From the IMG/VR virus record IMGVR_UViG_3300017987_000071, positions 1 to 64,000 of that record: a DNA stretch of 64,000 bases, one strand, 5' to 3'. The translations under genes were made by a program, and so were the position numbers. The notes beneath the pieces are model-generated. The model ran no database searches. It saw only the letters and a list, made by a program, of their open reading frames with translations, and was not told where the DNA came from. The stretch's first letter is position 1. Each line of letters begins with the position of its first letter. Below, one piece after another: positions 13,117-62,197 of this stretch. The DNA comes from a virus.

Positions 13117-14082
13117 CTACGCTGCTTTAGACATCAATTCCTGAAGCGTAACAACATGCCTACGCAACTGCTTCAAAGCATCCAGCACACGATCTAAACC
13201 CACAGGATACCGTCCCTTGAAAGCATCCCCCAAAAATTCATCAGCAGCGGCCTTTGCTTTCTCTTGCCATTTTCGATAATCTCTAATATCCTGATCTAAC
13301 GCCCGACGCAAATCGGTAATGTCACCACGATATCGCCTAAGCAATCTTGCAAGCGTTGGCATATCCACAGCACCAGATTCCAGTTTGCCACCTAGCACCT
13401 TGAATACTTCTGATAACTGATCTTGATACTCTTCCACTGGAGGCAACGCAGCACGCATAGCTGCCTCCGCTGCCATCCACTTTTGTCCTCGTCCCAACTT
13501 ATGGCGTAACCAACCCCAGAGGGCAACAAAAGCAGTGCCTCCTGCGGCAGCGTATTGCCAATAGTTTCTAACAAGATTCAACGCAACGTCGAACCAGTTC
13601 TCATCCAAGCGTGACTCTTTTACAATTAACCTAGCAGCCCCCTCTGGAGATATTGCTTCGTACATCACCAGATCAACATATAAGCTCCTATGCATCATGC
13701 TCTCCTCGTTTTGCCGTTTTGATTTTCTCTTTGCCAATATTTGCTCCCAGCGTCTTTTCTCAGAGCGATAAAGTTTCAGAACCGTTGGCAACCATTTTAC
13801 ATACACTTCTTCAGTAATTCTATCCTTCTCACCCTTATACCAACGACGCAAGGCATCATATTCGTTAGGCTTTGCTTCTGATTGGCCTAACTTCCTGCGT
13901 TTCTTCTCATACTCTACTTTCGCTTTTGCGAATCTCTTTTTCTTATCAAGCGACATCCACTCCCTAATTGCATTTCGCTTTGTAACAACTCGCTGCCAAG
14001 GGCCATCCCAAGTCTGAAACCAATCAGCAATACGATTCAACTCCTTGTTAATGGTTTCCACTTTTCCTTCTACTAAGTTCAT
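13117..14082 (-). CDS. Two-module helical protein with internal tag-like motif and hydrophobic segment
   Basis: YVDLVMYEAISPEGAARLIVKESRLDE followed by AAAGGTAFVALWGWL. Confidence 0.55.
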   Translation of the reverse strand: MNLVEGKVETINKELNRIADWFQTWDGPWQRVVTKRNAIREWMSLDKKKRFAKAKVEYEKKRRKLGQSEAKPNEYDALRRWYKGEKDRITEEVYVKWLPTVLKLYRSEKRRWEQILAKRKSKRQNEESMMHRSLYVDLVMYEAISPEGAARLIVKESRLDENWFDVALNLVRNYWQYAAAGGTAFVALWGWLRHKLGRGQKWMAAEAAMRAALPPVEEYQDQLSEVFKVLGGKLESGAVDMPTLARLLRRYRGDITDLRRALDQDIRDYRKWQEKAKAAADEFLGDAFKGRYPVGLDRVLDALKQLRRHVVTLQELMSKAA

Positions 14083-14615
14083 TTCAACTCCTTAGTAATC
14101 TCCTTCACGCCGCGATCTATAGCAAGAAGGTCCCTTAACACCTCAATGCGAATCCGCTCAGCGTGCTGTGGCATACGTACTTTAAATCGCTCCCAGACGG
14201 GACGCCAGTGTGGTCGAGCAGGCATCTTGCGTGTACCATACTCCAACCACAACATCAATTGAGCAAATGCGACCTTCGCTCTCGAATGGGGTTTATTGGG
14301 AAACCCTACCGAAACCTCGAAAGTCCCCCCTCTGCTTCTAGGGGTTGGTGTCTCAATTACGCTTATGTTATCTACGTATTCCTGCGTCATAACAAGAATA
14401 CGCAAATCGTAACCCTCCCGACGCTTTCGCTCAAGCCAAGCGTCAGACAAGGGAGGTTTTATATTGATCTGATACAGAATTGTATCCTGTACCGACTCAG
14501 CAAGCAAAGTAGCAACTTTTCGCAAATAACGAGTGCTACCCTCGAACACCGCTTTGCGAATGCCTTGCACGAAAGGCTTTGCCTTCTTATACCGCTTCGT
14601 CACCCTCGATGGCAT
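14079..14615 (-). CDS. Head-tail joining/tail completion protein (HK97 gp10-like)
   Basis: LEYGTRKMPARPHWRP signature. Confidence 0.8.
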   Translation of the reverse strand: MPSRVTKRYKKAKPFVQGIRKAVFEGSTRYLRKVATLLAESVQDTILYQINIKPPLSDAWLERKRREGYDLRILVMTQEYVDNISVIETPTPRSRGGTFEVSVGFPNKPHSRAKVAFAQLMLWLEYGTRKMPARPHWRPVWERFKVRMPQHAERIRIEVLRDLLAIDRGVKEITKELK

Positions 14616-14663
14616 AATCTAAGTTCCAAACAATCTACACACACTTTTAAAGAAAAAAGGAGA

Positions 14664-14888
14664 TCATGATTCAACCATTGCTGGATTAGCATTGAAATTC
14701 GTAAAGAAGATACCAACGTTGTTCGGCAGCCCCTTGCCTTCTGCTAAATCCGCGAATAAATTCGCTAAAGCCCCATACAACTCATTCTCCGTTTTGTATG
14801 CACCGTATCCATCCATACGGAATCGAAAAATGGTTCCGTCCACTGTACCTCCAGCGTCCTTCAATCCCTGCACTATTAAATTAGTCAT
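14664..14888 (-). CDS. Hypothetical protein
   Basis: TAATG overlap with the upstream gene. Confidence 0.5.
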   Translation of the reverse strand: MTNLIVQGLKDAGGTVDGTIFRFRMDGYGAYKTENELYGALANLFADLAEGKGLPNNVGIFFTNFNANPAMVES

Positions 14889-17147: not shown

Positions 17148-18572
17148 TTAGGGTGAGCTTTCGGTTATAGTACCTGTCACATAGTAGTCACTGTTGACAA
17201 CTTTCTGTGCTGTTCTGGTAGCCATACCACGACGAGTCACAAAGTCATCCAGCGTTACGGGTTCTGTGGTATAAAGTCCAATATACGGAGCATGAACATA
17301 ACCGGTATCCAAAATGCCAGTACCCTTATGCCCCATCAGGAACTCATTAGTAGGAAAGTCAGGGTCCTTATAGAACACAGTACCATCAGACAACTGCCCG
17401 GCTTTGTATATACCTAAAGAGCCTTTTGGAGCAGGAAATGCTTTATATCCTGGCATATATTCTACTATGTTTGCACAACCGGTACCACCAATCATCCAAG
17501 GGGTCACAGTTCTCTTAGTAGCATCAAAAATGAGGTTCTTGGCTTCAATGATCTTCAGCAAGAAAGTCTTGTAATGATCATCAAGAGAGATGCCTTCTGG
17601 CTTGGTTTTATCAAACGCAACTGAACCAGCACTCGCGACAGCACGCAAATGCTGAACAATCTTGAAATTGATTTCTTTGCTGATCATGTTCGCCATGAAA
17701 GCAGTTATCTCAACATCAGTTTGAACACCATGATAAGCCTTCATGTCTTGAGCGCCTTCTAAACTCCAACGTGCTCTTAGTTTGTTGGGGCGAGCAACAA
17801 CGGGGCAAGAAGTAAAACTCAGATCAACTTGTGGCACTTGGCTGGAACCTTCTAAATCAAACTGGTAAGTACCAGTAATAGCAGTACCAGAGCCAACAAC
17901 ACTAGAAAAGGTAACAGAATATGCACCGGTATGGTAGTTAACCGTACCACTACCACCACCCTGCAAACCACCTTTACCGTCATCGGTAACTACCTGTGTA
18001 CCATCGGTAATCTCAACGGTTCCGGCTCTAAGGCCTGAAGGACCATAAGCTAAAGTACCAGTATAAGCACCAGCACCACCATTCCCGTTCTGCAAAAACT
18101 CATTCTCCACCAGCTCGTCACTGTAGTGATAACCAGAAGACGGTCCTCGCTTAGCAGAATACATCTTTTCGCCCTTCTTTACATCACCCTTATCGGACCC
18201 ATAAAGAACGTCGAAATAGAAAATCATCCCACTAGGGGAATCCAAGGGTTGTACAGACACGAGATCAGCAGCAACCAAATTGTTCACAATGGCACGTATA
18301 AGTGGAAATACATACTTCTCGAAACTACCTACATGTGTAGTTCGAGTTGTCTCGTCCATATTAGCATACCACTTGCGCTGGTTCTCCATCAAAATAGCAC
18401 AAATGTGACGCTTCCACTCATCCTCAATTCCCTCAAGGAAGTTTACTCTCTTAAAGTTCTCGTACCCGCGGACTGCTCTACCAGGCATATTTGACCATGC
18501 TTCTTGTAGCATTTGCCCTTTCTGGTACATTGCTTCCATTAACTGTTGGGGGTCTTTTCGCATCTTACCCAC
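17148..18572 (-). CDS. Major capsid protein (T4 gp23-like)
   Basis: ILMENQ, PLIR, VSVQPL..PSG.IFY, KLRARWSLE.AQD..A.HG, EIN, APYI. Confidence 0.97.
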   Translation of the reverse strand: MGKMRKDPQQLMEAMYQKGQMLQEAWSNMPGRAVRGYENFKRVNFLEGIEDEWKRHICAILMENQRKWYANMDETTRTTHVGSFEKYVFPLIRAIVNNLVAADLVSVQPLDSPSGMIFYFDVLYGSDKGDVKKGEKMYSAKRGPSSGYHYSDELVENEFLQNGNGGAGAYTGTLAYGPSGLRAGTVEITDGTQVVTDDGKGGLQGGGSGTVNYHTGAYSVTFSSVVGSGTAITGTYQFDLEGSSQVPQVDLSFTSCPVVARPNKLRARWSLEGAQDMKAYHGVQTDVEITAFMANMISKEINFKIVQHLRAVASAGSVAFDKTKPEGISLDDHYKTFLLKIIEAKNLIFDATKRTVTPWMIGGTGCANIVEYMPGYKAFPAPKGSLGIYKAGQLSDGTVFYKDPDFPTNEFLMGHKGTGILDTGYVHAPYIGLYTTEPVTLDDFVTRRGMATRTAQKVVNSDYYVTGTITESSP

Positions 18573-18612: not shown

Positions 18613-20040
18613 TTACTTAGAACGCTCTCTCCTTACTATAGCCTGAATCAAATTAGGCTCATCATAACTCCTACACGATTCCGCTGATTCTACCAGCACT
18701 GAAATCTCATGGGATGGTTCTGGTAAGCGTGAGGGATGCATATCCCTAACAGCCCGACTTACCGAAGCAGATTCAGGTAAACTCTTCTTTTTAGCATCTA
18801 CCTGCTTCTTCTCAATTAATCCTTCAGCGATATGCTTCACCTGCATAGCATTAACACACTCTTTTAACGCAGGACGATATCGCTCCAACTCAGGGGAACT
18901 AAAAAGCAACCCCTCAGCAAAAAATGCAGCGCCGTCTTTATGATAGTGCTTCAGCAAACCTGCTGTAACACTCTCACAAGCAACACGCTTCTTTCCCTCC
19001 TCTTCTGCCTTTGCTTTCTTCTTTTTGGCTTCACCAAGCAAAGCCTCAGCTAATGATTCACTAGCACGACATCGCTTTACAAGTGCTTCACATATTTTGT
19101 TTAAAGCATTGTAACGCTTTGTGCGCTCAGCAAGTACTGCTTTAGTTTCAAGCAATTTTGGCAAAAGAGCAGTCACCACTTTTTGCTCAACTACGTTCTT
19201 GTTGTCACCCACAGCTTTATCCTCCCGCTGTGCTTTACGCGGTACTGCTACCGCCTTCTTCTTAACTCTTCGTTCCTTCTTGTAACCCTTTTGGTCCCAA
19301 ATCCGCCTTTCGATCAGCGCTTTTACTTTGTTAGCTTCGATCACCTCAGCGGGTTTTGCTGTAGCAGACTCAACTAAGTCCTTCAAGCGTACCAACGCTT
19401 CCGCTAATGTAACCACATCGGAATTGGATGCTATAAGCACACAGCGGGCAGCATCTATAACTTCAGCAGAAGCTACCTGTTGCCAACAACCCTCTTCTAC
19501 TCGATGCTCCTCTTTTAGAGGGCGAGTCAATGCAATATCAACAGAGGGGGTGCTCACAAAATCGAAGGTCTCCAACTGATAACCCTTCTGCACCTCCTCC
19601 AAACCATCTTGCAAAGGCATAGTCTCACCACGTCCTCTTGAAGACACCGGCACAGGGGCTTTCAACGCAAACAACTCTTTCAAAACTGTTGTGCGAGGCA
19701 CATTTAGTATCACAGCCTTACCAAGCACCAAGTTGTTTCCACCAACTCGAACTTCAGTAACAATATGCGATGTGCGATTGATGTTAGAAATTCCCTTATC
19801 AGGATGCTCCATCTCTCCCCACACCCGCATCTCATTCAACCGCTTGCTAAATATGCTTTCTGCAAGCAGTTGCTCCTCAAAGCGTTCTTTAGGATATACC
19901 CGTTTGTTTTCGTTGGCTACACCATAACGCTGAAAAGGGCCACATACCGACAAACGCTTATCGGTACCGAGAGGCGTATCTACGCTTTCGTTTAAAACCT
20001 CGATGGGTTTGAAAAGGAATGACTCTACCAGTAATTTCAC
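18613..20040 (-). CDS. Prohead protease (T4 gp21-like) fused to a scaffold-like coiled-coil region
   Basis: N.NKRVYP, GEMEHP, SH, VSSRG.G, FDFV.TPS, then ~300 aa of helical sequence. Confidence 0.93.
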   Translation of the reverse strand: MKLLVESFLFKPIEVLNESVDTPLGTDKRLSVCGPFQRYGVANENKRVYPKERFEEQLLAESIFSKRLNEMRVWGEMEHPDKGISNINRTSHIVTEVRVGGNNLVLGKAVILNVPRTTVLKELFALKAPVPVSSRGRGETMPLQDGLEEVQKGYQLETFDFVSTPSVDIALTRPLKEEHRVEEGCWQQVASAEVIDAARCVLIASNSDVVTLAEALVRLKDLVESATAKPAEVIEANKVKALIERRIWDQKGYKKERRVKKKAVAVPRKAQREDKAVGDNKNVVEQKVVTALLPKLLETKAVLAERTKRYNALNKICEALVKRCRASESLAEALLGEAKKKKAKAEEEGKKRVACESVTAGLLKHYHKDGAAFFAEGLLFSSPELERYRPALKECVNAMQVKHIAEGLIEKKQVDAKKKSLPESASVSRAVRDMHPSRLPEPSHEISVLVESAESCRSYDEPNLIQAIVRRERSK

Positions 20041-21180: not shown

Positions 21181-21651
21181 TCAACCTAAAAATAAATTCA
21201 CCGCTTCTACAGGGTTTACACCCGCAGCAACCTGCTTAAAGCATTCCTCTAATCGCTGCTCTGCGCTTTCAGTCAGCGTAGTATAACGAGAACTACCACA
21301 CTTATTACAACTGTAGTGCATTGCTTTTGGAGCACTAAGTTGCTCATGCAAACAATCAACACACTGCACCACCCAACCAGCAACACTCTCCTCCTTCTTC
21401 TTCTCAGTTTCAGGTGGCGGAGTAGTTGGCTTCTCAGGGGGTGTGTCTACTTTCTCAGCTTCAGGTTCAGGTTCTGCCTCTGGAGGCTCCTCTTCAATTC
21501 GTCTAGCGGTAATCTCAAACTGAGTGCCACATTTTGGGCACTTTATTGTGCAAGCTTCGTTTAAGCGCCCAGTGCCCCGCGACAAATTAATCGCTTCGTC
21601 TAGGCTACATTCCCTTGCACAATCGGGACATGTATAACTTTTTGCTAACAT
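21181..21651 (-). CDS. Double Zn-ribbon protein with Pro/Glu linker and C-terminal tag motif
   Basis: Four CxxC pairs; LTES...EECFKQVAAGVNPVEAVNLFLG. Confidence 0.6.
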   Translation of the reverse strand: MLAKSYTCPDCARECSLDEAINLSRGTGRLNEACTIKCPKCGTQFEITARRIEEEPPEAEPEPEAEKVDTPPEKPTTPPPETEKKKEESVAGWVVQCVDCLHEQLSAPKAMHYSCNKCGSSRYTTLTESAEQRLEECFKQVAAGVNPVEAVNLFLG

Positions 21652-21713: not shown

Positions 21714-22376
21714 TTACTTCACAACGATATTTCCAAGCATTTCCACTTCGGCAGGCACAGGCTTTTTCGCGGGCACATTAGCTTCTGGTTCAGTAACATC
21801 AACGGGTTCAGCCAATCGCGTGGGGGCTTGTGGCACCTTAACATCAGGGATAACTTTTTCGCAAGCAACCACCACCCAAAAGCGGATGTTTTGGGGATCA
21901 ACCGTAATTTCGCCAGGAGCACCACGCAAATCATCAGGAGATGCTGCCAACTTTGTACCAGGCAAAAAGGTTTTGATTTGTTCAACAAGTTGCTCTACAG
22001 AATCCTTGTCAGCAGTTTCGTTGATAAAAATGAACAGCACATCGAGGTTGTCATCAACCTCAATCTCTTCCAAATAATCCAATAGGTCTAAAGCATTCAG
22101 CTTCAGCATCACGCCATTAACCAATTCATCATAAGACAACCTCGGTTTACCCTGGGTCAAGTCCTCCAAAATGGTCGACAGTGATGCCCCCTGAATCAAC
22201 TGCTTAACGCTTTCCTCTACACCATCAGTTTTAGCAGCCTCTAAGCCAGCGATAAGCTTCTTGCCTTTATCGGTCATAAAGAAGTACCGTAGCAACTGCC
22301 TAAACTTGGTTCGATTTTGTCGGGTACCAACAGTCTGCAACCGCTGCTGGCGGTAATTCGGTCTTGGGTCACCCAT
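21714..22376 (-). CDS. Hypothetical protein with internal tag-like motif
   Basis: SD present; VEESVKQLIQGASLSTILED. Confidence 0.55.
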   Translation of the reverse strand: MGDPRPNYRQQRLQTVGTRQNRTKFRQLLRYFFMTDKGKKLIAGLEAAKTDGVEESVKQLIQGASLSTILEDLTQGKPRLSYDELVNGVMLKLNALDLLDYLEEIEVDDNLDVLFIFINETADKDSVEQLVEQIKTFLPGTKLAASPDDLRGAPGEITVDPQNIRFWVVVACEKVIPDVKVPQAPTRLAEPVDVTEPEANVPAKKPVPAEVEMLGNIVVK

Positions 22377-25814: not shown

Positions 25815-25824
25815 CGTTTCTCAC

Positions 25825-25916: not shown

Positions 25917-26556
25917 ATTGCTGCCAACCCTCAGCAACACCAAGCACCAAGTCCACTGCGCTAACTTTAGGTATTGCTAACCCTCTACGGGCCCAATCAG
26001 CAGCCATTTCATTAACCTCCTCTATTTTGGGTTGTATCCTCCTATTAAATTCAGTGAAGCCTCGCATATAACCAGTCAAAACACGATCCAATTGATTAAA
26101 TGGACCCCCCTTAACCATCACATTCGGTTGTCTACGCTTCAACCCCAAAATCTCGCGCCGAACATCCTTATACTTTCGTTGCATACTAGCAAACACCTTT
26201 GACCAAGCATTCAACACTTCAATTGCATCATCTGACCAAGCGTATTTTACCTCATGCACCCAATCCAGCATCAGTTTGCCCAACGCTTTTATTCTACGCT
26301 CAACAAACCAAGTTGCACGCTCTTCGCGAGTCCCAACCCGCAACAGTTTACGAATGCCATTAAACAATTTACCCAAGTAATGAAAAATCTCTTGCACCTG
26401 AGCAGCCAGCATCCGCAATCCCCCGGACTGTAGAAAACTTGCCCAAAAATCAGGAGCAGTAAAGTTCTCACTTAGCACATCAGCAACTAGCGTTCTTGCT
26501 TCCTCAACAGGAGACCCGCCAGCAACTACACGATCTACAGATTCTGCTATCTCCAT
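25861..26556 (-). CDS. Basic helical protein with N-terminal tag motif
   Basis: MEIAESVDRVVAGGSPVEEARTLVADVLSE. Confidence 0.65.
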   Translation of the reverse strand: MEIAESVDRVVAGGSPVEEARTLVADVLSENFTAPDFWASFLQSGGLRMLAAQVQEIFHYLGKLFNGIRKLLRVGTREERATWFVERRIKALGKLMLDWVHEVKYAWSDDAIEVLNAWSKVFASMQRKYKDVRREILGLKRRQPNVMVKGGPFNQLDRVLTGYMRGFTEFNRRIQPKIEEVNEMAADWARRGLAIPKVSAVDLVLGVAEGWQQWASKDKWFRKDDPFIKGL

Positions 26557-30634: not shown

Positions 30635-30857
30635 TAGGGGTCTCCTGCATAAATGACCTGCATACCCGTATATCTTGGGAGTTGCCACACGCTGGGCAAA
30701 TTATTGTCCCCTGGATCGGAGAATCCGCTGAGCGAAAACCTCTGTATGGTACCTGCACAATAACATTAAGATGCAACCTTTGCCCGCACGCACAGATCAC
30801 ATCGCCAGTGGTCTTCTGCTTTCCAAGTCTACTCATCCTAACTACCTGCATACTCAT
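30597..30857 (-). CDS. Small Zn-ribbon protein
   Basis: CACG...CPACG. Confidence 0.5.
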   Translation of the reverse strand: MSMQVVRMSRLGKQKTTGDVICACGQRLHLNVIVQVPYRGFRSADSPIQGTIICPACGNSQDIRVCRSFMQETPNEDSCSTGIWNR

Positions 30858-31374
30858 ACCAAACCTCCTGCAAGCGCAAGCGGACTGCCACCTTCCAGTA
30901 TTAAGTCTATTGTGTCACTTACGCTAGACTCTAAGTAGCGTTTTGCGGTTGCTTTTGGCTGGACGCCCATCCGACTCCAGCGATCAAGGTCTGCTTTTCT
31001 CAAACCAACATCCTCATAAGCACCACCAATCTGATGCGCTGTATTCAACGCTACGTTAATTGCCAACAACTTAGCAGGAATACCTTGCTTAAGACTAACA
31101 TTAAGACGATCCACCGCTTTAGCATACACCAAATTGTATTTCAAACGCCTACGATACACACCTTGCATAACATCACTCGGTTGCTGGTATCGCTTAACAG
31201 AGGCAACAGCAGACCCACTATACGGAAACTTAATCTGTGCTATTCGAGCATTTCGCTCAGTTTGCCCTATAAGCCGTTATCCTGCACCCAACCTTCATGC
31301 TCCAACTCATAACGTAATTTCGAGTACCAAGGCTCCAGTACATATATCGCTTCGATATCTCGTCTAAGCGTCAT
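30854..31374 (-). pseudogene. Internally deleted, frameshifted member of the DIEAIYVLEPW paralog family
   Basis: From ATG 31374 it reads MTLRRDIEAIYVLEPWYSKLRYELEHEGWVQDNGL-stop. Another frame continues RLIGQTERNARIAQIKFPYSGSAV...KATAKRYLES + tag. Confidence 0.85.
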
Positions 31375-31961
31375 GCTATAATTCTCCTACGCAACTTCCT
31401 CAAATCCTGCTGCAATGCAACCTTACGCTCTTTGATGAAGCGAGTATCATAAAGCATATCCCGAAAGTCGCTCTCCACCTTCCAGAACATTTCGCCTTGA
31501 GCATACCCCTTAGCATCCAACCGCTCACCGGTACGCTTAAAGCGGCCATGTAAACTAACCAACGCCCCACGCAACTTCAATGCTGACTCTATTACCTTAA
31601 CAACATCAGCAGGCCTCGGAGGGGTTTTAGGTTTGCCGTTGGTGTAACCCAACGCACGAACTTGCTTAATCAAATCCGCTAACCACTCTTGCAACTTCTC
31701 AAGCCTTTCGCCGTAAGCATCAGCAAGTTCCTCAAACTCAGGGTCCTCAACGATCTCTCGCCGTTTGCGAAGTGCTTGGAGTTTACGACCCCAATTAGGT
31801 CGTCTTCGACGCCTGGCAGCATGCCAAGCAGCAGCCCCAAAAGCAGGCAAGAACTCCTCTAGGTTGGTAGCATTCACTAAACTCTCTGCTACCCCCACAG
31901 CAGATTTGCTAACCAGCAGTCCGCTGACCGCTTCTGCTATATTGTGTTCTGTTAGTTTCAT
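31371..31961 (-). CDS. Basic helical protein with N-terminal tag-like leader
   Basis: IAEAVSGLLVSKSAVGVAESLV...NLEE, then FLPAFGAAAWHAARRRRR. Confidence 0.6.
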   Translation of the reverse strand: MKLTEHNIAEAVSGLLVSKSAVGVAESLVNATNLEEFLPAFGAAAWHAARRRRRPNWGRKLQALRKRREIVEDPEFEELADAYGERLEKLQEWLADLIKQVRALGYTNGKPKTPPRPADVVKVIESALKLRGALVSLHGRFKRTGERLDAKGYAQGEMFWKVESDFRDMLYDTRFIKERKVALQQDLRKLRRRIIA

Positions 31962-32869
31962 ACCATAGTCTCCACAAGGCTACCCGCCATCCGCTGGGGG
32001 CTAACACCATCCAAAATTAAGTCTATTGCATCTAGCACACTAGATTCAAGGTAGCGTTTTGCTGTCGCTTTTGACTGGACGCCCATCCGACTCCAGCGAT
32101 CCAAGTCTGCTTTGCTAAGTCCAATTACCCCCCCAACACTCCAATTCCGATGCGCCGTATTTAATGCTACGTTGATAGCAAGTATCCGCTCAGGAATCTT
32201 ACTCCCACTTTTGGATGCTTTATTAAGATAATCCGCCGCTTTAGCAAAAAGCAAACTAAACCCATAAAGCTCCCGCCCTTCAGCACCCCCATAAAACCCC
32301 TGTAACGCTTTCTCTTGCCGTCTTTGAACTTTTTGCACTGCGCTTCCAGTATAAGGGAACTTCATTTGCTTAGCGCGCTCGTCTCTCTCAGTCCTTAACA
32401 AGCGATCCATACCACTCAAAAAGCGTTGTACATGTGGGCCTGTAACTGTCCACCCATTATAATGGGCCCCACCAAAACTCTGCACAGATTTCAAAAAATC
32501 TAGTATAGGAAGCGTCACAAAATACAAAAGGCGATTCTTATAACTACCATACTCACCCTTTTGTGGAAAACACGGGTACGATAACCTTATAGTATCTGGA
32601 GCAAGAACCTCCAAACCAGTCAAATACAAAAAATCCCAGTCATCAACCTTAGGAGACCCCAAATCTGGCCAGCCACCACGCCAAACACCGCCTAGCACTG
32701 TCGGCCCTAACCATCGAATAACTCGCTGCGTCAACCGATCAAGCGACCGCTTCAACTGCTCCCAAAAAACGTTGTCTTGTACCCACCCTTCAGTTTCATA
32801 CTCGTATCGCAACTTGCTATACCAAGGCTCCAGTACATATATTGCTTCGATATCCCGCTTTAAACTCAT
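31958..32869 (-). CDS. DIEAIYVLEPW paralog family member with C-terminal tag
   Basis: Conserved N- and C-terminal blocks shared with four other loci. Confidence 0.8.
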   Translation of the reverse strand: MSLKRDIEAIYVLEPWYSKLRYEYETEGWVQDNVFWEQLKRSLDRLTQRVIRWLGPTVLGGVWRGGWPDLGSPKVDDWDFLYLTGLEVLAPDTIRLSYPCFPQKGEYGSYKNRLLYFVTLPILDFLKSVQSFGGAHYNGWTVTGPHVQRFLSGMDRLLRTERDERAKQMKFPYTGSAVQKVQRRQEKALQGFYGGAEGRELYGFSLLFAKAADYLNKASKSGSKIPERILAINVALNTAHRNWSVGGVIGLSKADLDRWSRMGVQSKATAKRYLESSVLDAIDLILDGVSPQRMAGSLVETMV

Positions 32870-34216: not shown

Positions 34217-35116
34217 CTACACCAGCAGACCGCACACCGCGGTCCGCAAACTTTGTCCTTCTAAAAGTTGGTCTATCGCCCCACGAACACTCAATGACTC
34301 TAAGTAGCGTTTTGCCGTTGCTTTTGACTGGACGCCCATCTTGCTCCAACGGCCAAGAATATCCTTATCTATATTCCATAATAAATCTGCTACGGAAAGA
34401 GTTTCATCCGTATGTACTGTATTCAAAGCTACATTAACTGCTAAAATACGACTTGGGATACGATCTCGATAACTTGCTTTCAACCTATCCGCAGCAACAA
34501 GCAACCGTACACCCGCATCCAGCAAATACTTCGGCATCGAAATACCTTTATACCACCGAACCTGACTAGATGCACTAAACTTACAACGATCTTGCACACT
34601 TACTAAACCACGCCTAATTATAGCAGTAAATTCCGCTAAAAACTTCGCACCAAGATACCAAACCAACTTTCCGTCTCTACGTTGTATAACATCTGGCTTC
34701 AATCGCTTAAACAATGCCACAACAGGATACAAAAATAACGGTGACTGCAAACGTTCTACGCGATCCCAGTTATCAATAACCTTTCTATAAAAAAGCGACA
34801 CGGGTTGCTCACCCCAACCATATACATCAGGATCAAAAAATACCCGTTTACCCTTCCAAATCAAATCCAACCCACCCAATAAATTCAGTGTATAAGCATC
34901 TAAATCAAAATCCTCGACCAACGCACCTATAGCATACGTCGCTAAACTCTCCGCTAAGGGTGGAATAACCCTCTTCGTTAATCGCTCCAGCGAATGCTTT
35001 AATTGCTCCCAGAAAACATTATCCTGCACCCAACCCTCATGCTTCAGTTCATAACGCAATTTCGAGTACCACGGCTCCAACACGTATATCGCTTCAATAT
35101 CCCGTTTTAAGCTCAT
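34217..35116 (-). CDS. DIEAIYVLEPW paralog family member with C-terminal tag
   Basis: First ~50 aa near-identical to 31958-32869; KATAKRYLES + AIDQLLEGQSL. Confidence 0.8.
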   Translation of the reverse strand: MSLKRDIEAIYVLEPWYSKLRYELKHEGWVQDNVFWEQLKHSLERLTKRVIPPLAESLATYAIGALVEDFDLDAYTLNLLGGLDLIWKGKRVFFDPDVYGWGEQPVSLFYRKVIDNWDRVERLQSPLFLYPVVALFKRLKPDVIQRRDGKLVWYLGAKFLAEFTAIIRRGLVSVQDRCKFSASSQVRWYKGISMPKYLLDAGVRLLVAADRLKASYRDRIPSRILAVNVALNTVHTDETLSVADLLWNIDKDILGRWSKMGVQSKATAKRYLESLSVRGAIDQLLEGQSLRTAVCGLLV

Positions 35117-39996: not shown

Positions 39997-40535
39997 ATGT
40001 CTCCAAACTTAACGTCCTTAAACCTCTTCTTAAGGGATTTCATAAGCACACCCAATGTTTCCCACTTAGCCTTAACATCCTCAAGATTGCTGCCTTCAAT
40101 AGCACTCGGCAAATCTATATTAAGACTCTTATACTTATCCCAAAACGCTTGGTCGGCCCGCTCATAATCATCTTCCAACGCCAGCACCCCCTGCACCAAG
40201 CGAGTCTGGTATTCGGGGTCGCTTCTTCCACCCTTCTTAGCAAGTCCTTTAAGTTCCCTTAGAAAAATGTCTGCCTCACGCCCTGCTTTCTTGGCAAGGC
40301 GCTCATATTCTTTATGGCCTTTGACCCTGGGTCTCGTCGGCAGGCGACCAGCATCTCGAATCTTCTTGACTACCCATTCTGCAACCTTTCCAAGCGTCCA
40401 CCCGCCCAGCGCAATTGCTCCTGCCCCCACCAAACCAATCTCATCGAGTTGCTTTTCGACGAGGCGTCCAGCGAGGTGCTTGGGGTTTTTGCCTTCCAGT
40501 ACTTGATCCACACATGCACTAATTGCTTGATTCAT
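39993..40535 (-). CDS. Protein with N-terminal tag followed by a Gly-rich hydrophobic helix
   Basis: CVDQVLEGKNPKHLAGRLVEKQLDE then IGLVGAGAIALGGWTLG. Confidence 0.65.
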   Translation of the reverse strand: MNQAISACVDQVLEGKNPKHLAGRLVEKQLDEIGLVGAGAIALGGWTLGKVAEWVVKKIRDAGRLPTRPRVKGHKEYERLAKKAGREADIFLRELKGLAKKGGRSDPEYQTRLVQGVLALEDDYERADQAFWDKYKSLNIDLPSAIEGSNLEDVKAKWETLGVLMKSLKKRFKDVKFGDI

Positions 40536-52483: not shown

Positions 52484-53037
52484 TTAGGGATTTCCTTTCC
52501 TGCCCGCCCCAGCGTTGTCTTTACACCCTTAACAGTATCCCGCACAAACTCCATCTTTGCCCCCATGCGAGCATCATGAGGCAAATACTTCTTAAGACGC
52601 TTTACCCGCGTCTCAACCTCCTTATAAAGATACTTTGCTGTATTCTTCAACGTATCCAACCTTGTCCGTACTCTAGCAATCTCTTGGTCATCATGAGGAT
52701 CAAACCCACCCTCAACCGATGCGGTATACAGTACCTCCGCATCCCTATAAATCTTCTTCACTTGTCCCCAGAACTTATCAGCAACCTTCTCATATTCTGG
52801 ATTGCCTTCCACACCACTAACTGCCCGTGTGAAATCATCTGCTTTATCTTTCAAATAGTGGTAGGTCTTATAAAGCGTTGTTGCCAACTTCCGATGAATA
52901 GTACGTGGGATGTCTGCTATCTTGCGATATGCCTTAACAGGCAAATCAAGAATGCCCTCATCCACCACAATGCTCTCTGCCAATTCCGATGGCAAAACGC
53001 CCTCAAGTATCAAATCTACTGCCTTAGACGTGTCCAT
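52480..53037 (-). CDS. Basic helical protein with N-terminal tag
   Basis: MDTSKAVDLILEGVLPSELAESIVVDE; GGAGG SD. Confidence 0.65.
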   Translation of the reverse strand: MDTSKAVDLILEGVLPSELAESIVVDEGILDLPVKAYRKIADIPRTIHRKLATTLYKTYHYLKDKADDFTRAVSGVEGNPEYEKVADKFWGQVKKIYRDAEVLYTASVEGGFDPHDDQEIARVRTRLDTLKNTAKYLYKEVETRVKRLKKYLPHDARMGAKMEFVRDTVKGVKTTLGRAGKEIPK

Positions 53038-55590: not shown

Positions 55591-56544
55591 CTATCCTACC
55601 AATAACACTACGGTACGAGATAAACTCATACCTTCCAACAAACAATTCACAGCATCCCACACCGAGATGCTTTCCAGATATCGTCTAGCGATCTCCTCTG
55701 CTGTATCTTTAACAGCAAGCAACCGCTTTAAGTATCCAGGTGTAATACCCGACAACGCTACACCACGATACCCAACCCCCATAATAGTCTCTAAAGCACC
55801 CTTTATTGCATAGAAACGATCATAAGGAGGTTTATTATATTCTTTATTCAAATCGTCCACCTTCGCAGCGAGAAGCGCATTCACGATGGTCAATTTACTC
55901 TTAGTGGACGCCAACGGATGATGGTACTTAATATCGTCAACCATCCTACTGGACCCACCATACGGGAACTCAAGTCTGCTACGAGCAAAAGCAAACTGCT
56001 CCTGAGTTAACTTCCATAAATACGGATAGAACTTGCTACGAGCATACTTGGGGTTAAGCTTCCAACGCCCATCATCCTTAACAAACTCTAAAGCCTCAAC
56101 GACCTTCCAAATGTCCAAGCGAGTAGACAACACAGTACGAGTCTGAGGTAGATTTGCTTTAAGAATCGCACGCACATCATCAGCATCTCTAGCATCCTTG
56201 CTATCCAACGCTGACGCAAAACCTACATAAGCAGAAGCATCCGCATTGCGCACCCCTTTAGGAGCACGTAAACCAAAATATGGCAGCAAGAAAGTAATAT
56301 GCTGCCACGGCTTCCACTGTGACGTAGCACTATCCCATATAAGCTTCAGCATACCACGCCCCAAGATATCAGATACTCTCTTAGTCACTTTGTCAAATGA
56401 TGTTTCAACACGCCTTAAAAACGACGCATCCCAAACCCAACCGCCACGCTCTTCGGAAGACTTTTGCTTCATGTACCAAGGATACAAGGCAAACAGAGCC
56501 TCTATATCCTTCCGAGGTAATACAATACGAGATTCTAATAGCAT
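55591..56544 (-). CDS. Divergent DIEAIYVLEPW paralog with C-terminal tag
   Basis: KDIEALFALYPWY.K....GWV.D..F; FPY.GS; ARRYLES + AVNCLLEGMSL. Confidence 0.7.
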   Translation of the reverse strand: MLLESRIVLPRKDIEALFALYPWYMKQKSSEERGGWVWDASFLRRVETSFDKVTKRVSDILGRGMLKLIWDSATSQWKPWQHITFLLPYFGLRAPKGVRNADASAYVGFASALDSKDARDADDVRAILKANLPQTRTVLSTRLDIWKVVEALEFVKDDGRWKLNPKYARSKFYPYLWKLTQEQFAFARSRLEFPYGGSSRMVDDIKYHHPLASTKSKLTIVNALLAAKVDDLNKEYNKPPYDRFYAIKGALETIMGVGYRGVALSGITPGYLKRLLAVKDTAEEIARRYLESISVWDAVNCLLEGMSLSRTVVLLVG

Positions 56545-56555: not shown

Positions 56556-57215
56556 CTATAGCATATCTTGAATATGCTTCATTAACCACATCCAGAGTTT
56601 GCGGATAACCAACCACAATAGAATTACCGCTGTGTAACTAGCAAGCCACAAAGCCCCCATATGTGCTGTGACCAATATCCCCAAGATACCTAAAAGAGCA
56701 GGGACCGCCGTAGAAGAATCACCAAACATCAACAATATCTTATTGATGATGCGTCGAGCTAAACCCTCACTGGATTTAGCCAATCCCATCTCCTGGTCCT
56801 CTATGTTCTGAAGGTAACCATCCACATCCTCGACCTTCTTTTCGACTTCCTTCTGCACATGCTTGGGCGATTTCCTAAAAATACCTGTAACAGCATCCCA
56901 AATGCTACCTAGCATCCCGCGCTTCTTTACCTTCTCTGCTGTCCGCAAGATCGTTCTCTCCACTGCACGCTCAGCGGATGGCAACTCCTTACGAATTTTC
57001 TCTGGTTCAAGTTTGCTAGGGTCAAACTCTATCCGAGTTCCCCGCAAGGTAAACTCACACAATGTTCCCTTTTCCAAACGCTCAATCGCCTGATCGACTA
57101 AACGATTAAAGCACCGCTCAAGCAAACGATCAAACGCAAAAGGATCAACTACTGCTTCAGCAACAGCATTAGGATTAACGCCTATGCTAACCGCAATCTC
57201 GTATATGTTATTCAT
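56556..57215 (-). CDS. Tag-bearing protein with C-terminal TM hairpin
   Basis: AVSIGVNPNAVAEAVV; GMLGSIWDAV; two TM segments. Confidence 0.6.
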   Translation of the reverse strand: MNNIYEIAVSIGVNPNAVAEAVVDPFAFDRLLERCFNRLVDQAIERLEKGTLCEFTLRGTRIEFDPSKLEPEKIRKELPSAERAVERTILRTAEKVKKRGMLGSIWDAVTGIFRKSPKHVQKEVEKKVEDVDGYLQNIEDQEMGLAKSSEGLARRIINKILLMFGDSSTAVPALLGILGILVTAHMGALWLASYTAVILLWLVIRKLWMWLMKHIQDML

Positions 57216-59945: not shown

Positions 59946-60018
59946 ACTTTCTCCTTTATGTAACGATAAGTAGACTCCATCAAATCAACTAACGAATACA
60001 CCGCCACAAACAAGGATG

Positions 60019-60984
60019 CTACAGCAAACACGGCTTCCATAATGACTCCTCGTATAACCAGGTTCTCAATTCCTTATCAAAAACACCAGGTCCCTTAGCA
60101 AGCACCCCTATACCAGCATCATGCACCGCCTTAGCAATCACAATACCTAAAGAAATGCCAAACACCGCCTCCAAAGCTATACCAGTAGCACCCAATAGTG
60201 AAGCAATAAATTTCATCATAGCAGGAAACCACATGTATGGACTAATTGGTGTAAAAGGGGGGACCAACATCAACACACCAATTACCATTAACAGTGGACT
60301 CTTATGAAACCGTAAAAATAGAAGATTAACTACCCGCTTAGCCAAGCCAACTATAAAACGCCAAAGCGCTCGCAATATCCCATAAATTGCAGAGCCAATC
60401 TTCCCAATAATTGACCCTTTCACCTTTACCTCTAATTCCTGCTCAAGACGCTTTTGCTCCTGCTCCAAAGTACGTAATGAATGCTTCACAGCAGCAAGCA
60501 ACGCCCTAACAATTTCGTCTGGAGAAGCATCATTCGGCAAATTCAAACCTTGCTTAAACTCATTAGTAAAGATGAATCTTTGCAAAAACTCAGCAGCGTC
60601 TTGCTTAGTACGCAAATCAGGAACACCCATATCCTTCAAGGTCTTCTCCACAGCACGCTCGACCTCAACAGCAGCGCCCTCCAAAAGAAGCACTTCCTCA
60701 ACGAGATTGTTCAACGAATATTCGCCATGCACCACAGCATTAACTGCTTCTCGCAAACTCTTCTCGTAACTTGTTTCATATAAAAAATCTGCTTGCATAA
60801 CCGATTCCTGTAACGAATACCCGTAAAACCTACAGCGCTTAGTAAGTTCTGGCAAGGCAGAAGCATCATCAACTTCAACAAAATCCTTGCCTGTGATGGG
60901 GTCTGCCCGCAATCGCACAGGCAAACCAGCAACTACCGAACTAAGCGAAGCCGTAGGCTCCACAGGTACAACCTGAAGAACCAT
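60019..60984 (-). CDS. Tag-bearing protein with C-terminal TM helices
   Basis: LREAVNAVVHGEYSLNNLVEEVLLLE; IIGKIGSAI; TM segments. Confidence 0.6.
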   Translation of the reverse strand: MVLQVVPVEPTASLSSVVAGLPVRLRADPITGKDFVEVDDASALPELTKRCRFYGYSLQESVMQADFLYETSYEKSLREAVNAVVHGEYSLNNLVEEVLLLEGAAVEVERAVEKTLKDMGVPDLRTKQDAAEFLQRFIFTNEFKQGLNLPNDASPDEIVRALLAAVKHSLRTLEQEQKRLEQELEVKVKGSIIGKIGSAIYGILRALWRFIVGLAKRVVNLLFLRFHKSPLLMVIGVLMLVPPFTPISPYMWFPAMMKFIASLLGATGIALEAVFGISLGIVIAKAVHDAGIGVLAKGPGVFDKELRTWLYEESLWKPCLL

Positions 60985-60985
60985 C

Positions 60986-62197
60986 CTAGAACCTGCTAGT
61001 TTCAGCAATCAATTGGCGCACAGCAAGAGAAGGATTAACACCACGCATAACTTTTCTAACAGCACTTTCTACCGCTGTTTTCTTCATATCAGCACCCGCA
61101 GGCAACGGTTGCTCACCTTCTACCTCTCTACCAGCAGAAGTTGACGCAGGATCATCCTTATCAAGAGGATCAGTTGTCTGCTCAGGACCCGGCACTGCGG
61201 TAGTAGTTTTAGGGTCAACAGCTTGATTATCCCCACCACCCTTAGTAGTCAATTCGTCAGCAGTAGGCGCAATAGGTGTCTTAGCACCCTCGTCCTCACC
61301 AAGCCAATAACCATCCCAATCATTTAAAGATTCCATCTCTGGTTCATCCTCCTCATCCTCTTCGGGGGGCAACTCTGGTTCTGGTTCTTCATCAGGTTCC
61401 TTATCATCAACTGGGTCTTCCTCTTCCCAAATTACAGAATTCAAATAGTCCACATAGGACTCCTTCTTACAATCCTCCCCCTTTACATCCTTCTTACTTG
61501 CCTTCTTTTTCTTCTCTTCCTCTGCCTTAGTTGCCTCTGACTTCACCTCAAAAAGCCCATTGTAAATTGAATGTGACTCCACAGCAGCAATGCCTGGAGT
61601 AGTTGACGTTGTAGTAACCACAGAAGGAGTAGTTATCATTGGCGCTGTAGGCTCCTCATCTGGAACAACAGGCGCATCAACTTCATCACCAACCTTGGAA
61701 AGGTCCCCAGGGTGAGTGCTAACTACATTCTGCTCTGATGTAGGCATTACTACACCGTCAACTACTCCATGCGTATGAGTATAACTCTGTGGACCTGTAG
61801 CTGGATCGGTAGTACCATCACCATCCATATCAAGGTCAACATAATGAGTATGTCCATCAGCAGGATCAGGAGAAGTCACATAACGAGTAGTCACAACGTC
61901 AGGCAAAGTCTCTTCAAGTAAATAAGGAGACCTTGCAAAAAAAGACTCTTTCTTTTGACTGCCATTTACAGCAGCAGCAGTAACAGGAGTAGCGCCAACT
62001 TCGGGTGGAGCAGCCCCCTCCTTTTGAACTTGGTCTGTTGTCAATAGTACGATCTGGTCGTTGAACGGACCACTGCTAACACATTTCACCTTTAACTGGG
62101 TAGCCTCAGCGCCCTCTTCTCCTACTTCCACAACAGAACCTCTCAACTGCAAACCGTCCTTATTAGTCCACAGTACAGAATCACCAACGTTTATCAT
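60986..62197 (-). CDS. Acidic low-complexity prohead-core-like protein with HTH repeats and C-terminal tag
   Basis: KOW-like N-terminus, DGHTH...THTH, several xxES sites, AVESAVRKVMRGVNPSLAVRQLI. Confidence 0.6.
   Translation of the reverse strand: MINVGDSVLWTNKDGLQLRGSVVEVGEEGAEATQLKVKCVSSGPFNDQIVLLTTDQVQKEGAAPPEVGATPVTAAAVNGSQKKESFFARSPYLLEETLPDVVTTRYVTSPDPADGHTHYVDLDMDGDGTTDPATGPQSYTHTHGVVDGVVMPTSEQNVVSTHPGDLSKVGDEVDAPVVPDEEPTAPMITTPSVVTTTSTTPGIAAVESHSIYNGLFEVKSEATKAEEEKKKKASKKDVKGEDCKKESYVDYLNSVIWEEEDPVDDKEPDEEPEPELPPEEDEEDEPEMESLNDWDGYWLGEDEGAKTPIAPTADELTTKGGGDNQAVDPKTTTAVPGPEQTTDPLDKDDPASTSAGREVEGEQPLPAGADMKKTAVESAVRKVMRGVNPSLAVRQLIAETSRF

What the first reader, a model, noticed from the sequence alone, without database searches (positions are those of the whole stretch)
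13117..62197. A ~25-aa, protease-site-flanked tag shared by about 16 proteins: candidate portable capsid-loading signal
Seen in sequence: one peptide pattern recurs in proteins that are mostly unrelated (numbers are ORF start coordinates). N-terminal copies: 25861 (ESVDRVVAGGSPVEEARTLV-ADVLSE), 39993 (ACVDQVLEGKNPKHLAGRLV-EKQLDE), 52480 (KAVDLILEGVLPSELAESIV-VDE), and weaker ones in 31371, 15452 and 56556. C-terminal copies: 30854 (YLES-SVSDTIDLILEGGSPLALAGGLV), 31958 (YLES-SVLDAIDLILDGVSPQRMAGSLV), 34217 (YLES-LSVRGAIDQLLEGQSLRTAVCGLL), 38792 (FLES-VGLAVDMIVEGVLPSVVACQIV), 55591 (YLES-ISVWDAVNCLLEGMSLSRTVVLLV), 60986 (AVES-AVRKVMRGVNPSLAVRQLI), 21181 (LTES...CFKQVAAGVNPVEAVNLFL). Internal, weaker copies: 13117, 21714, 60019. 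A Glu site usually lies on the cargo side: L/V-x-E after N-terminal copies and x-L/V/T-E-S before C-terminal ones. None of the recognisable enzymes carries the tag. Established: T4 gp21 cleaves after (I/L)-x-E inside the prohead, and T4 internal proteins IPI-III are loaded through a short cleavable N-terminal capsid-targeting sequence; this window encodes a gp21-type protease. Inference: this is a helix-turn-helix address label that works at either terminus, docks cargo on the prohead core and is then cut off, defining a large injected cargo. If so, it could be used to load foreign proteins into the capsid.
Basis: partly seen in the sequence, partly recalled or inferred. Interest (0 to 1): 0.92.

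Follow-up and report, generated by a model that had tools for sequence, protein, structure and literature searches.

The report
Shared terminal peptide tag on phage proteins
An uncultured marine or sediment giant phage carries the same ~20-residue helix-turn-helix peptide on a flexible tether at one end of several otherwise unexplained proteins, always with a glutamate site next to it; it may be a new kind of address label for loading proteins into the phage head, but that function is untested.

Summary

**How many copies hold up**
- A profile built only from the five C-terminal copies of one paralog family finds the N-terminal copies in genes 52480 (E 1.6e-6) and 39993 (E 1.7e-3).
- In leave-one-out tests, each of ten copies is the best non-seed hit.
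- Shuffled proteomes give almost no hits at these scores.
- Ten copies stand: about eight are solid, and 60986 and 21181 are marginal.
- 13117 and 31371 are supported through family homology. 56556 and 21714 are plausible. 15452 and 60019 are not supported.

**Carriers are not mostly unrelated**
- Five belong to family A, with the tag at the C-terminus.
- Four belong to family B, with the tag at the N-terminus or internal.
- That leaves about five independent contexts.
- Natural fusions place the tag between two domains.

**Properties of the tag**
- Conservation is at the peptide level; synonymous sites have diverged.
- AlphaFold2 predicts helix-turn-helix at low confidence on a flexible tether.
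- Every copy has a hydrophobic-x-Glu site on the cargo side.
- The same L-V-E-S type site occurs three times in the phage's own gp21-type protease.

**Reading**
Best reading (about 0.4): a docking handle for the prohead core that the protease removes. This would be a longer T4 capsid-targeting analogue that works at either end. No proteomic or binding evidence exists. A tag-to-tag pairing module is a serious rival.

The parts
31973..32032 (-). Tag copy at the C-terminus of family-A gene 31958-32869 (DAIDLILDGVSPQRMAGSLV), preceded by RYLES.
   Evidence: leave-one-out E 1.1e-5. The AF2 model gives helix 267-286, a turn, then helix 291-302, at pLDDT about 50.
34223..34282 (-). Tag copy at the C-terminus of family-A gene 34217-35116, preceded by RYLES.
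   Evidence: leave-one-out E 1.1e-3.
38795..38854 (-). Tag copy at the C-terminus of family-A gene 38792-39754, preceded by RFLES.
   Evidence: leave-one-out E 1.8e-4.
55597..55656 (-). Tag copy at the C-terminus of the divergent family-A gene 55591-56544, preceded by RYLES.
   Evidence: Leave-one-out E is 0.56, but the copy sits at the homologous position in the family alignment A1.
30857..30916 (-). Tag copy at the end of 30854-31168. This ORF is the C-terminal piece of a degraded family-A paralog; the N-terminal remnant lies at about 31270-31371 in another frame.
   Evidence: (leave-one-out E 4.9e-5).
52966..53025 (-). Tag copy at residues 5-24 of family-B gene 52483-53037 (KAVDLILEGVLPSELAESIV), followed by V-D-E.
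   Evidence: Found by the profile built only from family-A copies (E 1.6e-6). The database protein P0012 starts at the ATG at 53037. In the AF2 model, residues 1-40 have pLDDT below 50, with helices 4-11 and 16-23.
40458..40517 (-). Tag copy at residues 7-26 of family-B gene 39993-40535, followed by L-V-E and L-D-E.
   Evidence: E 1.7e-3; E 1.3e-5. Family-B membership: hhalign probability 96.5%, E 8e-10.
26485..26544 (-). Tag copy at residues 5-24 of gene 25861-26556, followed by L-S-E. The rest of the protein is not detectably related to family A or B.
   Evidence: (leave-one-out E 3.1e-3).
61007..61066 (-). Marginal tag copy (G-V-N-P subtype) near the C-terminus of the acidic protein 60986-62197, preceded by A-V-E-S.
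   Evidence: leave-one-out E 0.19, but still the top non-seed hit.
21187..21246 (-). Marginal tag copy (G-V-N-P subtype) at the C-terminus of the zinc-ribbon protein 21181-21651, preceded by L-T-E-S and R-L-E-E. The gene lies just upstream of the protease gene.
   Evidence: leave-one-out E 0.1; top non-seed hit; zinc-ribbon families, all below Pfam cut-offs.
13621..13683 (-). Internal tag copy in 13117-14082, with one extra residue in the turn. A retained Met precedes it and R-L-D-E follows. The C-terminal half of the protein is family-B-like.
   Evidence: hhalign of the B-family alignment against 13117: E 4.2e-4, 154 columns, residues 126-307. The tag HMM alone gives E 14.
31875..31934 (-). 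Degenerate N-terminal tag of 31371-31961, a probable family-B member, followed by L-E-E.
   Evidence: hhalign E 1.3e-4, probability 54%. Not found by the tag HMM.
57150..57209 (-). Possible N-terminal copy of the G-V-N-P subtype in 56556-57263. Not significant on its own.
   Evidence: (E about 3-4).
22155..22214 (-). Possible N-proximal copy in the acidic protein 21714-22376. The G001 ortholog h42486 has a similar segment (VQVDDIIRGTTSIREAASKLA).
   Evidence: (E 1.1).
18613..20040 (-). Prohead protease: an S77 (T4 gp21-type) domain fused to a ~250-residue K/E/A-rich tail. L-V-E-S occurs at residues 4-7, 222-225 and 449-452. This is the candidate enzyme for tag removal and a candidate docking hub.
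   Evidence: Pfam PF03420, E 4.1e-10; sequence; motif count.
17148..18572 (-). T4 gp23-type major capsid protein. Candidate propeptide sites L-M-E|N and M-D-E|T are conserved as L-L-E|Q and L-D-E|T in G001.
   Evidence: Pfam PF07068, E 5e-50; sequences.

Best explanation
The tag is a ~20-residue amphipathic helix-Gly turn-helix peptide, held on a flexible linker at one end of a set of fast-evolving ORFan proteins. It most likely acts as a common docking handle.

The proposed sequence of events is:
1. The tag binds one shared partner in the assembling prohead core. The scaffold-like tail of the protease is the first candidate.
2. This carries the attached protein into the head.
3. The gp21-type (S77) protease then cuts at the hydrophobic-x-Glu site between tag and cargo and releases the cargo inside the capsid.

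**Shown here**
- The recurrence of the tag, its terminal position and its peptide-level conservation.
- The predicted tethered helix-turn-helix.
- The adjacent Glu sites.
- The presence of the protease and of similar sites within the protease.

**Inferred, not shown**
- Binding to the core.
- Packaging of the carriers.
- Cleavage at the sites.
- Ejection into the host.
For: - **Non-chance recurrence.** It is seen across at least five unrelated protein contexts and at both termini.
- **Selection on the peptide.** Third codon positions differ freely among copies.
- **Conservation outside this genome.** Family-A homologs at 34-45% identity keep YLE[S/H/N] plus the tag at the C-terminus. Family-B homologs keep the N-terminal tag plus I-T-E|G or L-D-E|G.
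- **Structure models.** AF2 gives confident helical bodies with the tag as helix-turn-helix at pLDDT 36-55. That pattern is expected of a peptide that folds only on a partner.
- **Glu sites.** [LIV]-x-E lies within 8 residues after all three strong N-terminal copies, against a background of 0.093 per window. [LVT]-E-S lies within 10 residues before the C-terminal copies in three unrelated contexts, against a background of 0.008.
- **The protease carries the same motif.** L-V-E-S occurs three times in the protease: near its N-terminus, at the domain/tail junction and near its C-terminus. There are 19 such sites in 27,420 residues, so about 0.3 would be expected in this protein. The G001 protease has LIES, LTES and VVES.
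- **T4 precedent.** T4 gp21 cuts after L/I-x-E and has an N-proximal L-I-E. T4 Alt and gp21 are processed at the C-terminus. T4 internal proteins share only a capsid-targeting sequence (PMC9026906; PMC3012670).
- **SPN3US precedent.** The SPN3US protease prefers Ser at P1' (PMC10052503).
- **Absence from enzymes.** The tag is not found on the identifiable enzymes.
- **One consensus.** Tags of neighbouring A and B genes are no more alike than tags of distant ones. For example, 52480 and 38792 share 13 of 20 residues although they lie 13 kb apart. This suggests one common partner (sequences; my own count).
Against: - There are no virion proteomics, and no cultured relative carries these families.
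- Three-residue Glu sites are common, and the C-terminal pattern was defined after seeing the data.
- P3 is Tyr or Phe before family-A tags, which is outside the T4 L/I-x-E and the phiKZ/SPN3US A-x-E logos.
- In T4, phiKZ and SPN3US, targeting propeptides are N-terminal.
- The carrier genes are interleaved with glycan, methylation and replication genes rather than sitting in a clean head module.
- No tag-like segment was found in the protease tail or the capsid protein, so no partner is identified.
- The tag is not significantly present in the nearest genome-scale relative G001: 3 hits at 4 bits or more, against 0.5 expected.
Confidence: 0.42

Rival explanations
1. The tag is a pairing (docking) module. 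Two helix-turn-helix hairpins would form a four-helix bundle. Proteins with a C-terminal tag (family A, 60986, 21181) would then associate non-covalently with proteins carrying an N-terminal tag (family B, 25861). This resembles the docking domains at polyketide synthase subunit ends. The tag would not be removed, and no capsid targeting is implied.
For: - A and B genes cluster together: 39993 with 38792; 31958 with 31371 and 30854; 55591 close to 52480.
- Natural fusions place exactly one tag between an upstream domain and a downstream body: P0010, P0015 and the in-window gene 13117.
- The numbers of C-terminal and N-terminal carriers are similar.
- Each tag helix has an i, i+1, i+4, i+5 hydrophobic stripe (read from the sequence). 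A 20-residue hairpin cannot be stable alone.
Against: - This does not explain the conserved Glu sites on the cargo side, or the same motif in the protease.
- Tags of neighbouring A/B genes do not co-vary (sequences).
- 60986 and 21181 have no obvious partner.
Confidence: 0.25
2. The tag is a fusion relic. It would simply be the conserved N-terminal segment of family-B proteins. Loss of a stop codon let upstream genes read into a downstream B gene. Later truncation left the segment as a C-terminal tail on family A and a few others. Its spread would reflect gene fusion and fission plus tandem duplication of A/B cassettes, not a general address function.
For: - In P0010, P0015 and 13117 the internal tag is preceded by a Met at exactly the position of the B-family start codon.
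- Nine of about twelve copies belong to just two paralog families.
- One A copy is a decaying gene.
Against: - The C-terminal tag is kept in family-A homologs at 34-45% identity from other samples, and its synonymous sites have diverged. It is therefore under purifying selection in that position.
- It also occurs on three proteins unrelated to A or B.
- This accounts for the tag's origin, not for why it is maintained.
Confidence: 0.15
3. The tag is a recognition handle for the phage's modification enzymes (glycosyl-, methyl- and sulfotransferases, radical SAM enzyme). It would work like a RiPP (ribosomally made, post-translationally modified peptide) leader or follower peptide. It marks substrate proteins and is then clipped off, possibly by the caspase-like peptidase.
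For: - Carrier genes are interleaved with GT2, GT9, TylF- and CmcI-type methyltransferases, a radical SAM enzyme and a sulfotransferase-like gene.
- A Peptidase_C14 gene lies at 48711-49526 and is conserved in G001.
Against: - The carriers are 100-400-residue folded helical proteins, not short core peptides.
- No RiPP recognition element was identified.
- The flanking sites are Glu sites, whereas bacterial caspase homologs cut after basic or Asp residues (general knowledge).
- G001 keeps the caspase homolog but has no significant tag.
Confidence: 0.07
4. The similarity is chance or compositional, among helical Ala/Leu/Val/Glu-rich ORFans.
For: The weakest claimed copies (15452, 60019) score no better than hits in shuffled sequence.
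Against: - Cross-family detection at E 1e-6.
- The left-out copy ranks first among non-seed hits in every leave-one-out run.
- 0.01 hits expected per shuffled proteome at 6 bits or more, against 7 observed.
- The position is strictly terminal.
- The tag is conserved in outside homologs.
Confidence: 0.02

Closest known systems
T4 capsid-targeting sequence (CTS) of internal proteins IPI-III and Alt, removed by the gp21 protease
   Same: - A short terminal peptide is the only thing shared by diverse, fast-evolving proteins.
- The phage has a gp23-type capsid protein and a gp21-type (S77) protease.
- A hydrophobic-x-Glu site separates the peptide from the cargo.
- T4 Alt and gp21 are also processed at the C-terminus (PMC9026906; PMC3012670).
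   Different: - The T4 CTS is about 10 residues and N-terminal. This tag is about 20 residues, is predicted as helix-turn-helix, and sits at the C-terminus in most copies or internally in fusions.
- The site before C-terminal copies has Tyr or Phe at P3.
- Packaging and cleavage are proven in T4 and untested here.
- Sequence similarity to the T4 CTS was not tested.
N-terminal propeptides of head and ejection proteins in the giant phages phiKZ, 201phi2-1 and SPN3US
   Same: - A giant phage with many head-associated paralog families.
- A gp21-related protease that cuts after Glu, with Ser favoured at P1' (PMC10052503).
- The protease has a C-terminal propeptide.
   Different: - Those propeptides are N-terminal (except the protease's own), 20-254 residues long, and do not share one recurring sequence motif.
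- Their logo is A-x-E.
C-terminal helix-turn-helix coat-binding domain of the P22 scaffolding protein (residues 268-303)
   Same: An amphipathic helix-turn-helix at a protein end that docks inside a procapsid. It is enough to carry fused foreign cargo into the shell (PMC9962691).
   Different: - It is 36 residues long and binds through basic residues.
- It belongs to the scaffold itself and is not cut off.
- There is no sequence match: the PDB profile search returned nothing relevant.
Encapsulin cargo-loading peptides
   Same: Short terminal peptides, at the C-terminus or N-terminus depending on the family, that direct unrelated cargo into an HK97-fold shell (general knowledge).
   Different: - Encapsulins are not viruses and have no protease step.
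- The consensus sequences are different.
Docking domains at the ends of polyketide synthase or NRPS subunits
   Same: Short helical modules at the C-terminus of one protein and the N-terminus of the next that pair them. Fusion of the two proteins replaces the pair (general knowledge).
   Different: - Those domains come as complementary, non-identical pairs. Here one consensus is used at both ends.
- The biology is unrelated.

Membership tests
T4-type capsid-targeting sequence / protease-removed propeptide | The phage encodes a gp21-type prohead serine protease and a gp23-type capsid protein. | tested here: met
   Pfam Peptidase_S77, E 4.1e-10; Gp23, E 5.1e-50. T4-type portal, E 3e-30.
T4-type capsid-targeting sequence / protease-removed propeptide | The peptide is N-terminal and about 10 residues long. 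| tested here: not met
   The tag is about 20 residues. Seven of the ten supported copies are C-terminal, and some are internal.
T4-type capsid-targeting sequence / protease-removed propeptide | An L/I-x-E cleavage site lies between the peptide and the mature protein. | tested here: inconclusive
   N-terminal copies and B homologs have [LIV]-x-E. C-terminal copies have Y/F-L-E-S, A-V-E-S or L-T-E-S. Cleavage itself cannot be tested here.
T4-type capsid-targeting sequence / protease-removed propeptide | Carriers are present in the virion, and the peptide is absent from the mature protein. | not testable with these tools
   The phage is uncultured. No homolog occurs in cultured phages.
T4-type capsid-targeting sequence / protease-removed propeptide | The peptide is sufficient to load a foreign protein into the head. 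| not testable with these tools
   This needs an experiment.
P22-type scaffold helix-turn-helix coat-binding domain | An amphipathic helix-turn-helix fold. | tested here: inconclusive
   AF2 predicts helix-turn-helix in both families, but at pLDDT 36-55.
P22-type scaffold helix-turn-helix coat-binding domain | Sequence relationship to a solved scaffold domain. | tested here: inconclusive
   The profile search of the PDB returned only three weak, unrelated hits with E of 0.06 or more.
Any Pfam or PHROG family for the carriers | A hit above the curated threshold. | tested here: not met
   No family reached its cut-off for the A, B, 25861 or 60986 proteins. 21181 gave only sub-threshold zinc-ribbon hits.

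The most novel reading that the evidence does not exclude
A 20-residue helix-turn-helix address label works at either end of a protein, or between two domains. It would load a large and rapidly diversifying set of proteins into the head of an uncultured giant T4-related phage, after which the prohead protease excises it. This would be a bidirectional capsid-targeting signal that defines a large injected cargo.
Probability: 0.33. Interest if true: 0.8.

Novelty: new variant of a known kind. Interest (0 to 1): 0.6.

Why it matters
If the tag is a loading signal, it has three consequences.
- It would be the first recognisable sequence signature for packaged or ejected proteins outside the T-even phages, so the injected proteome of an uncultured giant-phage lineage could be read from sequence.
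- It would show that prohead targeting can work from the C-terminus and from internal positions.
- It would offer a compact, excisable handle for loading foreign proteins into capsids.

If the tag is instead a pairing module, it would be an unusual case of split-protein docking in phage accessory proteins. Either way, the A and B families (conserved ends, hypervariable cores, tandem duplication, decay) look like arms-race proteins worth characterising.

Tried and rejected
**Searches that found nothing**
- Nucleotide search of the phage collection with the capsid/protease region: no match.
- tblastn of A and B proteins against 50,697 phage records: no match.
- IMG/VR scans with the A protein, the A alignment, the B alignment and P0003: no relatives.
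- Metagenome scan: only one 2.6-kb contig.
- GTDB genome scan: none.
- Homolog search for 39993: itself only.

**Searches for function or fold**
- Pfam and PHROGs on the carriers: nothing above threshold.
- Foldseek against PDB and BFVD, and VIA-align wide, on the family-A model: no match beyond generic helical bundles. Best Z was 6.7.
- A nucleotidyltransferase hint from the ESM Atlas (score 0.92 with only 100-110 shared features) and a few low-ranked PDB rows is treated as a lead only.
- The Atlas search for family B was uninformative.
- PDB sequence-profile search with the tag: no relevant hit.

**Tests of specific ideas**
- Tag-like segment in the protease tail or capsid protein: none by hhalign. 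By eye I saw a "VNFLEG" resemblance in the capsid propeptide, but it is not supported statistically.
- Tag in relative G001: only a weak excess, not significant.
- The tag as a translated DNA element or recent recombination tract: rejected, because synonymous positions differ.
- T4 late-promoter motif TATAAATA: not enriched, with 2 matches against 2.6 expected.
- Sequencing runs: no RNA holder is listed. The DNA is held in sediment and seawater metagenomes.

**Tool failures**
The neighbourhoods of P0002, P0003, P0010 and P0013-P0015 could therefore not be read.
- The Python machine was lost, so no further statistics could be computed.

Full report
**What the window is**

The window is 64 kb of an 83.7-kb virus record. 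CheckV rates the record 39% complete, so the true genome is probably about 200 kb. Nearly all genes lie on the minus strand. The record encodes:
- a T4 gp23-type major capsid protein at 17148-18572;
- a gp21-type S77 prohead protease at 18613-20040;
- a tail sheath and a baseplate-J protein;
- a T4-type portal at genome position 77238-78896, outside the window.

The nearest cultured phages share at most 36.5% identity in the capsid protein. The nearest genome-scale relative is a 192.6-kb IMG/VR contig, G001, at 48% capsid identity. The DNA occurs in sediment and seawater metagenomes.

**Is the motif real?**

Yes. The translated ORFs show the pattern x-A-V/I-D-x-h-h-E-G-x-S/N-P/L-x-x-x-A/V-x-x-L/I-V/L, where h is a hydrophobic residue. 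To avoid circular reasoning, I first built an HMM from only the five C-terminal copies of one obvious paralog family.
- Its next best hits in the 124-protein set were the N-terminal copies in 52480 (21.2 bits, E 1.6e-6) and 39993 (E 1.7e-3).
- With seven seeds, 100 shuffled proteomes gave 0.01 hits per proteome at 6 bits or more, against 7 observed.
- In leave-one-out runs over ten copies, the omitted copy was always the best non-seed hit. 25861 reached E 0.003. 21181 and 60986 reached only E 0.1-0.2.
- All ten copies lie within 26 residues of a protein end.

The remaining claimed copies are not significant alone: 21714, 56556, 13117 and 60019 have E of 1 or more, and 31371 and 15452 are not listed.

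The DNA alignment of the ten copies shows free variation at third codon positions. The conserved object is therefore the peptide, not a nucleotide element or a recent recombination tract.

**Are the carriers unrelated?**

Mostly not.
- With tags masked, 30854, 31958, 34217, 38792 and 55591 are clear paralogs, here called family A (alignment A1).
- 30854 is the tail of a decaying copy. Its N-terminal remnant lies in another frame just upstream.
- Profile comparison shows that 39993 is a full-length relative of 52480 (probability 96.5%, E 8e-10, 162 columns).
- 31371 is a probable member of the same family (E 1.3e-4). So is the C-terminal half of 13117, including its internal tag and a retained Met (E 4.2e-4). 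Together these form family B.
- 25861 matches family B only over the tag.
- 60986 (acidic) and 21181 (zinc ribbons) are unrelated to either family.

The tag therefore occurs in about five independent contexts, not sixteen.

**Relatives elsewhere**

- Family A has a handful of metagenomic homologs at 34-45% identity. Five keep the C-terminal tag after a conserved YLE[S/H/N]; in P0006 and P0008 the tag is degenerate. L274 is invariant and E275 nearly so.
- Family-B homologs P0013 and P0014 keep the N-terminal tag, followed by I-T-E|G or L-D-E|G.
- Two natural fusions exist. P0010 is a family-A body, then the tag, then a basic tail. P0015 is an unknown 230-residue domain, then V-M-E-S, the tag and a family-B body.
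- In both fusions, and in 13117, a Met sits exactly where B proteins start. This suggests that upstream genes have read through into a tag-B gene.
- G001 shares the structural genes but none of the carriers except 21714. The tag profile gives only a weak, non-significant excess there.

**Structure**

| Model | Body | Tag region |
|---|---|---|
| 31958 (family A, 12-sequence alignment) | Confident helical body (blocks at pLDDT 85-95) | Last ~40 residues at pLDDT 43-55: helix 267-286, turn, helix 291-302 |
| 52480 (family B) | Four long helices at pLDDT 77-94 | Residues 1-40 below pLDDT 50: helices 4-11 and 16-23, then a coil holding V-D-E |

In both families the tag looks like a tethered helix-turn-helix that is not packed on its own protein. 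Neither body has a recognisable fold match.

**The Glu sites**

- After the three strong N-terminal copies, an [LIV]-x-E lies within 8 residues. The background is 0.093 per window.
- 31371, 13117 and the outside B homologs follow the same rule.
- Before the C-terminal copies, the sequences are RYLES or RFLES (family A), TAVES (60986) and TLTES (21181). The background for [LVT]-E-S within 10 residues is 0.008, but that pattern was defined after seeing the data.
- The motif hydrophobic-[LVT]-E-S occurs only 19 times in the proteome, and three of those are L-V-E-S in the protease itself. They sit at residues 4-7, 222-225 (the junction between the S77 domain and the K/E/A-rich tail) and 449-452.
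- The G001 protease carries LIES, LTES and VVES.
- The capsid propeptide has L-M-E|N and M-D-E|T, conserved as L-L-E|Q and L-D-E|T in G001.

Published work supplies the precedents.
- T4 gp21 cuts after L/I-x-E and has an N-proximal L-I-E.
- T4 gp21 and Alt are processed at the C-terminus.
- The 10-residue CTS of the internal proteins targets them to the core and is then removed (PMC9026906; PMC3012670).
- The SPN3US protease favours Ser at P1' (PMC10052503).

**Interpretation**

The data fit a docking handle that takes proteins to a common partner and is then clipped off. The prohead core is the natural partner in a phage of this type. I put this at about 0.42.

Two points weigh against it. 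Genes for the carriers sit among glycosyl-, methyl- and sulfotransferase genes, a radical SAM enzyme, a DNA methylase, a kinase, a sliding clamp and a caspase-like peptidase. No partner surface was found by sequence.

The main rival (about 0.25) is a tag-to-tag pairing module joining A-type and B-type proteins.
- In favour: A/B gene clustering and the single-tag fusions.
- Against: it leaves the Glu sites unexplained, and neighbouring A/B tags do not co-vary.

A pure fusion-relic origin explains how the tag spread. It does not explain why the tag is conserved at the C-terminus of family A across samples.

**Comparison with known systems**

Functionally the nearest system is the T4 CTS. Structurally the nearest is the P22 scaffold helix-turn-helix used for cargo loading (PMC9962691). 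Encapsulin loading peptides are the nearest precedent for a tag that works at either terminus. The tag fails the strict CTS definition (N-terminal, about 10 residues) and has no sequence match to any solved domain. If the function holds, it is a new variant and not a member of an existing family.

**Limits**

- The script machine was lost.
- No experiment bears on packaging or cleavage.

Noticed in passing
window 18613-20040 (-): The prohead protease is fused to a ~250-residue K/E/A-rich coiled-coil tail, and there is no separate scaffold gene between it and the capsid gene. An L-V-E-S site at the junction (residues 222-225) could release a scaffold-like fragment. G001 has the same fused layout (594 aa).
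   Followed up: partly
window 20041-64000 and genome 64001-77237: The portal gene (genome 77238-78896) lies 57 kb upstream of the protease gene; in T4 only genes 67 and 68 separate the two. The interval is all on one strand. It mixes the tagged ORFans with GT2, GT9, TylF- and CmcI-type methyltransferases, a radical SAM enzyme, a sulfotransferase-like gene, a DNA methylase, a deoxynucleoside kinase and a DnaN-type clamp.
   Followed up: partly
window 30854-31371 (-): A degraded family-A paralog. A 33-residue N-terminal remnant (TLRRDIEAIYVLEPWYSKLRYELEHEGWVQDN...) ends in a stop. The C-terminal ~130 residues continue in another frame, and the variable core is missing.
   Followed up: yes
window 25824-25915: A 46-nt tandem duplication (98% identical) covers the last codons of gene 25861 and the sequence just downstream.
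   Followed up: no
window 48711-49526 (-): A caspase-domain (Peptidase_C14, E 6.5e-30) protein, conserved in relative G001 at 29.5% identity. It is a second protease in the region, with unknown substrates.
   Followed up: no
window 17148-18572 and 294-2303 (-): Capsid protein residues 155-238 and baseplate-J protein residues 466-551 share 38.6% identity (E 4e-7). This looks like a shared inserted Gly/Thr-rich domain in two different virion proteins.
   Followed up: no
window 12345-14082 (-): Genes 13117 and 12345 share an N-terminal domain (25% identity, E 1e-6). Both are inserted between neck/tail genes that are adjacent in G001. The C-terminal half of 13117 is family-B-like.
   Followed up: partly
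protein P0008 (metagenomic homolog of family A): A family-A body is followed by a degenerate tag-like stretch and then SNF2 helicase motif I (DEMGLGKT) at the contig end. This may be a fusion of family A to a helicase.
   Followed up: no
window 39993-40535, 31371-31961, 25861-26556 (-): Directly after the predicted Glu site, several N-tagged proteins have a Gly/Ala-rich hydrophobic stretch, for example IGLVGAGAIALGGW in 39993. P0013 has one too. Removing the tag would expose a membrane-active-looking N-terminus.
   Followed up: no
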